Assembly: GCF_006345805.1 (NCBI RefSeq)
Contig: NC_042999.1
Coordinates: forward strand, 97,774,001 to 97,838,000
Origin: Octopus sinensis
Lineage: Eukaryota
Direction: 5' to 3'
Length of the DNA stretch: 64,000 nt
Part shown: piece after piece, positions 11,040-54,034 of the stretch
Layout: each line of letters starts with the position of its first letter
Numbering within the stretch: position 1 is the stretch's first letter
Program-made: the position numbers and the translations under genes
The notes under the pieces: model-generated
Told to the model about the DNA's origin: nothing
The model's database searches: none
The model's input: only the letters and a program-made list of their open reading frames with translations

Positions 11040-11286
11040 GTGACTTTATTTACATTATTTACATTTGACGGATATTTGTCCTCATCGTGTTTGTTGTTAA
11101 CACGTTTCCGCTGATATACCCTCCAGCCTTCATCAGGTGTCTTAGGGAAATTTCGAACTTTGGTTCTCATTCCTAAGGTATTTTTCAATGTTATTATTAT
11201 TATTATCATTCATGTCACTGCCTGGAATCGAACTCGGAATCTTGGGGTTAGTAGCCCGCGCTCTTAACCACTACGCCATATGCCGG
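11040..11286 (-). mobile_element. tRNA-headed element with hammerhead core; probable inverted Penelope pLTR or SINE-like unit
   Basis: Minus strand: box A TGGCGTAGTGG, loop GGG-CTACTAA-CCC, box B GAGTTCGATTCC (11214-11284); then GACAC-CTGATGA-AGGCTG...CAGCG-GAAAC-GTGTT (11099-11141); ends in (TGTAAATAA)2. Confidence 0.7.
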
Positions 11287-11324
11287 TGGGAAATTACGTT
11301 GTGAATTTTTGGGCTTATAATTAA

Positions 11325-11765
11325 GATACAAAAGATATGCGGGCCATCTAACATCAGTACGGTATTCAAGAGTAATACAAGACTTCGCAAATATCTCCTT
11401 CTAGTAAAACCACCAGTAGAAGAGAATATGACCAAAAACTGCGTGTACTCCATCCCATGCAGCTGTGGTAGGTTATACAAAGGCGAAACATGCCGCCCCC
11501 TCAAAATAAGGGTAGACGAACATCGCAAAGCTGTGACAGGAGGAGATATTGATAAAATCCGGTATAGCTGATCATGTATGGAAAAATGGAGACTACCTCC
11601 CCCTGTGGGATGAAGTTAAAATAACAGGCAAAGAGCACCACTGGAAAATATGAAAACTAAAAGAAGCAGGACATATGCCAGGACACAACAACCCCCTAAG
11701 GAGACCGAGTGCAGATATGAATAGCATATGGGATCCGGTATTATGGAAGGATAGGAAAATATTAG
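11325..11765 (+). mobile_element. Penelope-like element, GIY-YIG endonuclease fragment
   Basis: STVFKSNTRLRKYLLLVKPPVEENMTKNCVYSIPCSCGRLYKGETCRPLKIRVDEHRK...IADHVW...KEHHWKI*KLKEA, matching the PLE GIY-YIG pattern VY.IPC.C...Y.GET.R.L..R..EH. Confidence 0.88.
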
Positions 11766-11769
11766 ATTT

Positions 11770-12317
11770 AAAGGAATATAAGAGACGCCACGACAATATA
11801 GCCAGGCTTGTCTATTGGACACTCTGCAACAAGTATGGACTTGACAAAGCATAAAATTGGTACGACCACAAACCTGAAGGCATCATCGAAAATAGAAATG
11901 CAAAGATCCTATGGGATTTTATGATTCAGTGCGACCATGAGATAGAGAATGTGAAGCCGGACATAGTCTTAATTGAGAAAGAAAACAATCTATGCTGGAT
12001 CATAGATATAGCATGCCCAGCTGACAACAAGGTATGCGATAAGGAAAAAAGAAAAGTCGGAAGATATGACAGGTTAGCTTGGAAAGTTAAGCAGTTGTAG
12101 TACCAATAATTGTTGGAACCCTGGGAGAAGTGAGAAGAAATCTCGAGAAGTACATGGAACAAATAGGGGCTGCAATAAGGGTGGAGTACTCGCAGAAAAC
12201 AGCACTGCTTTGATCCGCTCGAATACTCCGGAAGGTGCTCGAAAACTAAGAGACGTTTACTGGTAGTGAACAGCTGACACCGTAGTACATCTCCAGCGTT
12301 AGAAGCTGTGCAAAAGC

Positions 12318-12370
<53 letters not shown>
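11770..12370 (+). mobile_element. R4/Dong-clade LINE 3' end with (TAA)n tail
   Basis: KEYKRRHDNIARLVYW...KILWDFMIQCDHEIENVKPDIVLIEKENNLCWIIDIACPAD...QKTALL*SARILRKVLEN*, short UTR, then (TAA)n at 12319-12370. Confidence 0.9.
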
Positions 12371-12373
<3 letters not shown>

Positions 12374-12470
12374 GAAGAAGAAGAAGAAGAAGAAGAAGAA
12401 GAAGAAGAAGAAGAAGAAGAAGAAGAAGAAGAAGAACCCATAATAATAATTATTATTATAATAATAATAA

Positions 12471-12590
12471 CCCATACCTGGTGTTATTTAGTTCGTTTGA
12501 GAGTGGGATCAGTGCCATGCAAAAGAGTAATGGAGAGAGGGAGTCACCTTGAAAGATGCCTCGTTTGATGTTGATGTTGTTAGTTTGGTT
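12471..12590 (-). mobile_element. R4/Dong-type RT domain fragment
   Basis: NINIKRGIFQGDSLSPLLFCMALIPLSNELNNTRYG (RT QG.SLSP motif), abutting (TAA)n. Confidence 0.8.
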
Positions 12591-12769
12591 CATCCTATTA
12601 ATATAGCTACGTTCTTTGATTATCTCCCTTGAAAACACGTTCATCGTTTGCACGTAACATATGGTGGCGTTGCTGCTTCCAAAGTTCATTTTCGTTTCTC
12701 TATTACTAATTTTACTCGCGTATCTTTCTTAAAATGAGCTGCTTGGCGGAGGTCTGCGGAGGATGACAT

Positions 12770-53999: not shown

Positions 54000-54034
54000 G
54001 TTTAACGTTTCGAGCAGAGCTCTTCGTCAGAAAC
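54000..54034 (-). ncRNA. Minimal type I hammerhead ribozyme motif in a roughly 210-bp repeat (53897-54105)
   Basis: GTTT-CTGACGA-A-GAGC(TCT)GCTC-GAAA-CG-TT-AAAC: complete CUGANGA and GAAA core, stem I GTTT/AAAC, palindromic ACGT stem III. Confidence 0.75.

What the first reader, a model, noticed from the sequence alone, without database searches (positions are those of the whole stretch)
11040..11765. Penelope terminal unit combining a tRNA-like Pol III promoter and a hammerhead ribozyme core
Seen: a unit of about 245 nt on the minus strand with a tRNA-like head (box A TGGCGTAGTGG, box B GAGTTCGATTCC, anticodon-like loop CTACTAA), a short (TAA)n linker, a hammerhead core (GACAC-CTGATGA...GAAAC-GTGTT) and a (TGTAAATAA)2 tail. 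It lies head-to-head with a plus-strand GIY-YIG fragment. Known: Penelope-like elements carry minimal hammerheads in their pLTRs, and 5'-truncated copies often have an inverted pLTR upstream. Inference: either this family captured a tRNA gene inside its pLTR (Pol III-driven, self-cleaving transcripts), or this is a SINE mobilised by Penelope machinery. This copy lacks the NUH triplet between GAAAC and stem I and is probably inactive.
Basis: partly seen in the sequence, partly recalled or inferred. Interest (0 to 1): 0.8.

Follow-up and report, generated by a model that had tools for sequence, protein, structure and literature searches.

The report
Penelope retrotransposon with tRNA-derived promoter

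Summary
Observation confirmed. Window 11046-11320(-) is the 3' pseudo-LTR, and 11323-11770(+) the GIY-YIG end, of one Penelope/Poseidon-type element (about 2.65 kb, single ORF); the two arms abut in element coordinates, so this is one 5'-inverted insertion. The tRNA head is built into the protein-coding element: it follows the stop codon in direct orientation in 22 of 24 other copies. It best matches the genome's tRNA-Arg(ACG) (46/65), with A and B boxes at tRNA spacing. The family's commonest letters give a complete minimal type-I hammerhead; this copy has lost the cleavage triplet and the G10.1-C11.1 pair. New here: 73 of 91 head-bearing segments start within -8..+11 of tRNA +1, short and ORF-linked copies show no diagnostic differences, and the sense strand has no T4 terminator over 2.65 kb (P about 0.016; a second PLE family has 3-6). 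Best reading: Pol III starts at the head, and PLE-type internal reverse transcription yields SINE-like run-off copies. Pol III use and self-cleavage are untested; RNA-seq was uninformative. PLE hammerheads are known; I found no tRNA-headed autonomous PLE in nine literature searches, but Repbase and Dfam could not be checked.

The parts
11046..11320 (-). Inverted arm: ORF stop codon, spacer and whole pseudo-LTR (tRNA head, TAA tract, ORF start, hammerhead, short 3' end)
   Evidence: aligns to profile columns 2375-2652 at 93.8% with one 3-nt gap
11286..11320 (-). Last codon, TAA stop (11317-11315) and spacer between ORF end and tRNA head
   Evidence: same spacer follows the ORF end in other copies
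11221..11285 (-). tRNA-derived head, best match tRNA-Arg(ACG), no 3' acceptor strand; 5' ends of short copies pile up at its start
   Evidence: 46/65 identities, z 10.3, best of 12 isotype groups tested
11268..11278 (-). Pol III box A at tRNA position 8
   Evidence: consensus recalled
11225..11233 (-). Pol III box B at tRNA position 53
   Evidence: consensus recalled
11191..11210 (-). (TAA)n tract, variable in length among copies, upstream of the start codon
11168..11170 (-). In-frame ATG of the element's ORF, which runs through the hammerhead
   Evidence: similar N-terminal peptide in relative P0004 (E 0.007 pairwise)
11099..11141 (-). Minimal type-I hammerhead; in this copy the cleavage triplet is deleted and C11.1 (11109) is substituted
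11046..11063 (-). 3' end of the short class (without the ~28-nt PLE tail found in about half of the copies)
11323..11770 (+). Direct arm: end of the RT thumb/linker and GIY-YIG endonuclease, frameshifted, ending where the inverted arm begins
   Evidence: columns 1931-2377, 94.2%

Best explanation
The locus is a dead, 5'-inverted insertion of a protein-coding Penelope/Poseidon-type retroelement whose pseudo-LTR contains a tRNA-Arg-like head, the ORF start and a minimal hammerhead motif, and the head likely serves as an internal RNA polymerase III promoter. Shown: element anatomy, head fixed ~30 nt behind the stop codon, 5' ends of short copies piled at the head's start, two 3'-end classes, target duplications on some solo copies. 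Inferred: RNA starts a few bases upstream of tRNA +1; the element's RT/GIY-YIG protein nicks AT-rich DNA and starts reverse transcription internally, about 120-160 nt into the ORF (as shown in vitro for the anole element PAc), so RNA that begins at the head gives a 250-280-nt run-off copy that looks like a SINE; longer copies need RNA that reads through a tandem into a downstream pLTR. Priming at both nicked strands, or a second internal priming, gives the head-to-head arms. The hammerhead would cleave only as a dimer or with protein help and would cut the start codon off the ORF; uncleaved RNA appears to be what is inserted.
For: Head after ORF in 22 of 24 GIY-picked copies; unit in direct orientation in 19 of 20 RT-picked copies that reach the ORF end. 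Partial-tandem full-length copies L140, L128. One open frame of 783 codons in the column-majority profile. 5' ends: 18 of 43 at-risk hammerhead-picked segments stop in -8..+11, hazard 0.027/nt against 0.005 downstream and 0.002 upstream; 73 of 91 head-picked segments stop there. Exact-pattern counts drop from 1598 (head) to 497 (ORF end) across ~45 nt. No diagnostic column, similar divergence (5.9% vs 6.6%) in 98 short and 49 ORF-linked copies. 3' ends bimodal, 43 and 43 of 95. 9-12-bp duplications on 6 of 14 solo copies. No T>=4 run on the sense strand, 3.3 expected, P 0.016; second PLE family without a head has 3-6. Mechanistic precedent PMC11167929, PMC4209133.
Against: No RNA evidence for a defined 5' end: three unstranded RNA-seq runs showed both strands, 66-71% of reads running on into unlike sequence and no pile-up of ends. 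The 5' ends are spread over ~20 nt and coincide with a small quasi-palindrome at -7..+4, and about half of the segments have an inversion there, so fold-back could cause part of the peak. A and B boxes are no better conserved among copies than their neighbours. G>=4 runs are also absent, and T4 absence is not significant under Markov-1/2 controls (P 0.06, 0.12). Only one control family. Characterised Penelope promoters are Pol II type (PMC2377424). 19 of 91 heads do not reach the hammerhead body.
Confidence: 0.6

Rival explanations
1. Same anatomy, but the head is a vestige of an old tRNA or SINE insertion; the 5'-end peak marks a Pol II start site in the pLTR or a reverse-transcriptase stop and fold-back at the small palindrome at -7..+4.
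For: Penelope and Chlamys start sites lie in the pLTR and are Pol II type. 45 of 91 head-picked segments have an inverted arm, many joined in the palindrome. A 2.4-kb ORF needs translation, which favours capped RNA (established knowledge; also argued for TRIMp3 partners in PMC10886601).
Against: About 14 solo copies without inversion also start at -7..+11, nine of them at -7..-2 (my reading). The head does not fold stably (z +1.76 for this copy). Boxes A and B are intact at exact tRNA spacing while the acceptor strand is gone. Sense strand lacks T4.
Confidence: 0.28
2. The short units are a separate non-autonomous SINE lineage (tRNA head plus PLE 3' end) mobilised in trans, and ORF-linked heads arose by recombination with it.
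For: Short units outnumber ORF-linked ones about three to five fold and carry target duplications.
Against: No column differs in its commonest letter between the two classes; smallest P 0.00035 of 236 tests; both variants at hammerhead position 7 occur in both. The head sits at one fixed place behind the ORF in 22 of 24 copies.
Confidence: 0.09
3. A chance SINE insertion beside a Penelope fragment at this locus.
For: 6 of 91 heads have neither hammerhead body, inverted partner nor ORF link.
Against: the stop-spacer-head joint also appears in contigs of runs from other organisms (joint 11317/11770 in X3, X16, X20).
Confidence: 0.01

Closest known systems
Penelope/Poseidon-clade PLEs with minimal hammerheads (Poseidon_Ac/PAc of Anolis, Cercyon, Xena)
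   Same: Single RT plus C-terminal GIY-YIG ORF, partial tandems, inverted 5'-truncated arms, optional ~30-nt tail, ORF start inside or before the hammerhead, long helix II, 5-bp helix I, extra base before helix II, palindromic 15.2-16.2 (PMC4209133, PMC11167929, PMC8557442).
   Different: pLTR begins with a tRNA-derived head with boxes A and B; most copies are head-to-tail run-off units; no T4 on the sense strand. PMC4209133 does not contain the word tRNA.
Schistosoma Sm-alpha / Sj-alpha SINE-like repeats
   Same: Pol III promoter and type-I hammerhead in one short repeat (as reviewed in PMC6765202; primary paper not held).
   Different: Those are non-coding tandem repeats with canonical hammerheads; here the unit is the terminal repeat and ORF start of a protein-coding PLE.
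TRIMp3: Cassandra, Helenus, Ajax
   Same: Small-RNA-derived Pol III promoter embedded in a terminal repeat (PMC10886601).
   Different: Non-autonomous LTR elements of 0.3-1.3 kb that do not share the LTR with their autonomous partners; no ribozyme; the paper does not mention Penelope.
tRNA-derived SINEs sharing a 3' end with a LINE (including cephalopod OK/OR1/OR2; primary paper not seen)
   Same: tRNA head, short length, target duplications, high copy number.
   Different: Here the autonomous partner itself carries the head, the mobilising enzyme is a PLE, and the 3' end is the PLE tail. Identity with OR1/OR2 could not be tested.
Metazoan non-LTR retrozymes
   Same: 170-400-nt hammerhead-bearing units proposed to be mobilised by PLEs (PMC7229834).
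   Different: Retrozymes are tandem arrays with canonical ribozymes and circular RNAs; these units are dispersed or inverted pairs with a minimal ribozyme; no tandem short arrays seen in 95 sampled segments.

Membership tests
Penelope-like element, Penelope/Poseidon clade | Single ORF with RT and C-terminal GIY-YIG endonuclease | tested here: met
   783 codons without stop in the column-majority profile; RVT_1 weak hit, E 1e-4, below cut-off; 56% identity over 555 aa to P0004, which passes RVT_1; GIY-YIG read from motifs (VY..YKG, E, H..H), Pfam GIY-YIG itself not hit
Penelope-like element, Penelope/Poseidon clade | Pseudo-LTRs from partial tandems, inverted 5'-truncated arms | tested here: met
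   L140, L128; inversions in 45 of 91 segments
Penelope-like element, Penelope/Poseidon clade | Optional 30-40-nt tail (two RT start sites) | tested here: met
   3' ends bimodal, 43 at columns 2646-2668 and 43 at >=2676 of 95; tail here ~28 nt
Penelope-like element, Penelope/Poseidon clade | No Zn-finger linker between RT and EN (unlike Neptune/Nematis) | tested here: met
   By reading; the control family has a CxxxxCxxC linker. No tree was built
Minimal type-I hammerhead of PLEs | CUGANGA, bulge, G10.1-C11.1, GAAA, NUH, helix I of 4-5 bp (family level) | tested here: met
   Commonest letter at every core column fits; only position 7 is polymorphic; 27 of 83 copies have all 14 core positions
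Minimal type-I hammerhead of PLEs | Same core in this copy | tested here: not met
   3-nt deletion of the cleavage triplet (also in 8 of 83 copies) and substitution at 11109
Minimal type-I hammerhead of PLEs | Self-cleavage | not testable with these tools
   No pile-up of 5' ends at the site: 2 of 180 segments at columns 2594-2597, in a sample biased to longer copies
tRNA-derived SINE (SINE2) | tRNA-related head with boxes A and B | tested here: met
tRNA-derived SINE (SINE2) | 5' end at the head, target duplications, many dispersed copies | tested here: met
tRNA-derived SINE (SINE2) | Independent non-autonomous lineage, head absent from the partner element | tested here: not met
tRNA-derived SINE (SINE2) | Transcription by Pol III | tested here: inconclusive
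   RNA-seq uninformative; indirect support only
Functional tRNA gene | Cloverleaf with acceptor stem | tested here: not met
   ARAGORN 0 genes, no Rfam tRNA hit, 3' acceptor strand absent

The most novel reading that the evidence does not exclude
An autonomous, protein-coding retrotransposon whose full 2.65-kb RNA is made by RNA polymerase III from a captured tRNA promoter: the sense strand has been purged of T4 terminators, the uncapped RNA is translated from an AUG ~115 nt behind the start, and the same master produces both full elements and a SINE-like swarm. It would be a LINE-SINE pair in one element and a natural Pol III mRNA.
Probability: 0.22. Interest if true: 0.9.

Novelty: new variant of a known kind. 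Interest (0 to 1): 0.62.

Why it matters
SINEs are usually explained as a tRNA promoter fused to the 3' end of a LINE, with the LINE keeping a Pol II promoter. Here the autonomous element carries the tRNA head itself, and the SINE-like copies appear to fall out of Penelope's internal reverse-transcription start. That gives a genomic read-out of where a PLE transcript begins, supports in a genome what was shown in vitro for PAc, links PLEs to Pol III-plus-hammerhead repeats such as Sm-alpha and to retrozymes, and makes a sharp test possible: can Pol III drive a protein-coding retroelement? It also means tens of thousands of 'SINE' or 'tRNA pseudogene' annotations in this lineage are PLE ends.

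Tried and rejected
ARAGORN and Rfam found neither head nor hammerhead. MFE folding of this copy's hammerhead and head gave nothing above shuffles (its third sequence was a wrong stretch and is ignored). One search used wrong-orientation coordinates and hit an unrelated repeat; repeated correctly. Pfam did not recognise the window fragments; PDB search gave nothing. No relative in metagenome contigs, so pLTR DNA of distant relatives was not obtained and the age of the capture is open. No RNA holder was listed on record; raw RNA reads from organism B were unstranded and showed no ends. No target duplication is evident around the window copy. No trace of hammerhead cleavage in 5' ends. Boxes not more conserved than flanks. 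The binomial values rest on hand counts and a hazard I chose, and one copy counted as solo (L236) later proved inverted; I do not rely on them. Parent tRNA: Arg-TCT looked best among the first sample but Arg-ACG won once fetched; not all isotypes were tested. Earlier findings of the scan: none. Papers PMC5785218 and PMC108972 were not held. Literature searches without a report of a tRNA-headed PLE; two used the word octopus because I recalled this repeat from cephalopod sequence, which no call established. Repbase, Dfam, SINEBase sequences and subscription papers (Ohshima and Okada 1994) could not be checked.

Full report
Observation. The plus strand from 11323 encodes a frameshifted GIY-YIG end. 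ARAGORN and Rfam see neither RNA motif. With my own pattern, an A-box/B-box pair at tRNA spacing occurs once in the window against 0.017 expected.

Both parts are high-copy repeats. In the 2.72-Gb genome G000 an exact 26-mer of the hammerhead occurs 4903 times, a 30-mer pattern of the head 1598 times and a 30-mer pattern of the ORF end 497 times, with zero hits for the reversed controls. At about 6% divergence per site the first figure suggests roughly 25-40 thousand pLTR copies (my estimate).

The head belongs to the protein-coding element. Of 24 other copies picked by the GIY-YIG fragment, 22 carry the head about 30 nt behind the stop codon in direct orientation; L032 has the head deleted but keeps the rest of the unit, and L047 breaks off after the head's first bases. 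Of 30 loci picked by an RT stretch, 20 reach the ORF end and 19 of these continue into the unit (L111 repeats L033, and some loci on small contigs may be duplicates). L140 and L128 show the classical partial tandem, a pLTR piece followed by the ORF. A profile from 26 natural pieces has 2692 columns; its commonest letters give one frame without a stop over 783 codons. A natural 551-aa frame is 56% identical to database protein P0004, which passes Pfam RVT_1. There is no Zn-finger linker, so by the criterion in PMC8557442 (passages) this is the Penelope/Poseidon type; no tree was built. The in-frame ATG lies inside the pLTR (window 11170) and the frame runs through the hammerhead; P0004 has a similar N-terminal peptide (weak, E 0.007). 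In the anole element PAc the ORF also starts before the cleavage site (PMC11167929, parts 1-2 of 4 read). The stop-spacer joint is also seen in contigs from runs of other organisms.

The window copy. The plus arm covers columns 1931-2377 and the minus arm columns 2375-2652, each about 94% identical to the commonest letters. The arms therefore tile the last 730 nt of the element once, head to head, the geometry known as twin priming in L1 (recalled). Four of the 30 RT-picked loci show the same abutting geometry (L112, L121, L138, L139). No target duplication is evident; the right neighbour from 11771 is an unrelated 5'-truncated LINE piece.

The hammerhead. In copies not picked on this motif, every core column has the hammerhead letter as its commonest, and only position 7, the free position of CUGANGA, is polymorphic. 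The architecture (5-bp helix I, an extra base before a 5-6-bp helix II, G10.1-C11.1, palindromic 15.2-16.2, GUU site) is that of the PLE minimal hammerhead described in PMC4209133 (passages and section 5), which is weak as a monomer. 27 of 83 copies keep all 14 core positions and 8 share the 3-nt deletion seen here. The window copy also has a substitution at C11.1, so it is inactive on two counts. 5' ends do not pile up at the cleavage site (2 of 180, biased sample), in line with PAc, where uncleaved RNA is the main template.

The head. Against tRNA genes fetched from the same genome, the best match is tRNA-Arg(ACG): 46 of 65 columns, z 10.3, next best score 55 against 67, in register from the first bases (12 groups tested, not all isotypes). 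Boxes A and B sit at tRNA positions 8 and 53; the 3' acceptor strand is missing, so it is a promoter-type remnant, not a tRNA gene. Whether it came straight from a tRNA gene or through a tRNA-Arg SINE with a (TAA)n tail is open.

Where copies begin. Among 93 hammerhead-picked segments (first 90 loci along contig C1; 2 of 95 failed), 43 reach the head and 18 of them stop within -8..+11 of tRNA +1, 0.027 per nt against 0.005 just downstream and 0.002 upstream; several of the 11 ends at -48..-9 are fold-back junctions at the same place. Among 91 head-picked segments, 73 stop in -8..+11, 15 are linked to the ORF side (14 by the script, L265 moved there by reading) and 3 stop in the spacer. About half have an inverted arm, often joined in a quasi-palindrome at -7..+4, and arms of one pair are not independent. 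About 14 copies without any inversion still start at -7..+11, nine at -7..-2 (my reading). Six of 14 solo copies inspected have 9-12-bp target duplications. 3' ends fall in two classes, 43 and 43 of 95, about 28 nt apart, the PLE tail (envelope ends are fuzzy). 72 of 91 heads run into the hammerhead body; of the other 19, nine have an inverted partner arm with the body, four are ORF-linked and six are neither, most ending in the TAA tract. Short (98) and ORF-linked (49) copies differ in no column's commonest letter and are about equally diverged, so they come from the same masters.

Terminators. The sense strand has no run of four or more T over 2.65 kb but 30 runs of A. Synonymous-codon shuffles expect 3.3 (P 0.016), base-weighted recoding 4.9 (P 0.005); Markov-1 and -2 controls give only P 0.06 and 0.12, and G runs are absent too. 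A second, young PLE family in the genome, without a head in the stretch read behind its ORF, has 3-6 T4 runs per reading frame in 11 of 11 loci. This is suggestive, not proof.

Mechanism. PAc nicks AT-rich DNA and starts reverse transcription at two sites 111-118 nt into its ORF. Here the 3' ends lie about 120-160 nt behind the ATG. An RNA that starts at the head and is copied from those sites gives exactly the 250-280-nt unit that dominates the genome. The 5'-end peak thus most simply marks the RNA's start, and intact boxes at canonical spacing plus the missing terminators point to Pol III (0.6). The main rival is a Pol II start or an RT stop with fold-back at the same place (0.28); Penelope's own promoter is Pol II type (PMC2377424, passages). 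Three RNA-seq runs were unstranded, dominated by copies inside host transcripts, and showed no ends, so transcription is untested. Whether Pol III also makes the translated full-length RNA is the bolder claim (0.22).

Comparison and novelty. It is a member of the Penelope/Poseidon PLEs and its hammerhead is of the known minimal type. The short copies work like SINEs but fail the test of being an independent lineage. Nearest analogies are the Schistosoma Pol III-plus-hammerhead repeats (review PMC6765202, passages), TRIMp3 elements with tRNA or 5S promoters in LTRs, all non-autonomous (PMC10886601, passages), and metazoan retrozymes (PMC7229834, passages). Passages of PMC4758252, PMC4824008, PMC6962438, PMC10294476 and PMC13725137 added no report of such an element. 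Nine searches found no tRNA-headed autonomous PLE, but repeat libraries, supplements and subscription papers were not seen, and so abundant a family is probably catalogued under some name. Verdict: real, new variant of a known kind, interest 0.62.

Noticed in passing
window 11771-12350 (+): 5'-truncated 3' end of an unrelated non-LTR element with a restriction-like endonuclease motif (RHD...KPD...D), ending in (TAA)n; looks R4/Dong-like by recall. Atlas hits are unnamed eukaryotic clusters; other copies continue upstream of 11771.
   Followed up: partly
window 12456-12728 (-): RT fragment (GIFQGDSLSPLLF) of a similar non-LTR element, tail region facing the one above across (TAA)n(GAA)n repeats.
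   Followed up: no
L351-L361: A second, young PLE family with long intact frames (687-1009 codons between stops), a CxxxxCxxC linker (Neptune-like), C-rich sense strand, CA-rich 3' region and a hammerhead-like motif in its terminal repeat.
   Followed up: partly
L291, L269, L241, L263: Four heads end in the TAA tract against the same other repeat; four more (L273, L283, L246, L272) abut LINE-like pieces. Suggests shared use of (TAA)n microsatellites as targets.
   Followed up: no
G000:C2:3129900-3149500: Tandem array of about 85 tRNA-Arg(ACG)-like genes with a ~206-bp period.
   Followed up: no
hammerhead-picked set L141-L230: About 20 of 93 segments have their 5' end inside the TAA tract, next to (TAA)n, (GAA)n or (GAT)n microsatellites: a second 5'-end hot spot, probably microhomology with the target.
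   Followed up: partly
window 54030 region (-), offset 9970 on the reverse strand: One match to my loose minimal-hammerhead pattern elsewhere in the window, about position 54000; not examined.
   Followed up: no
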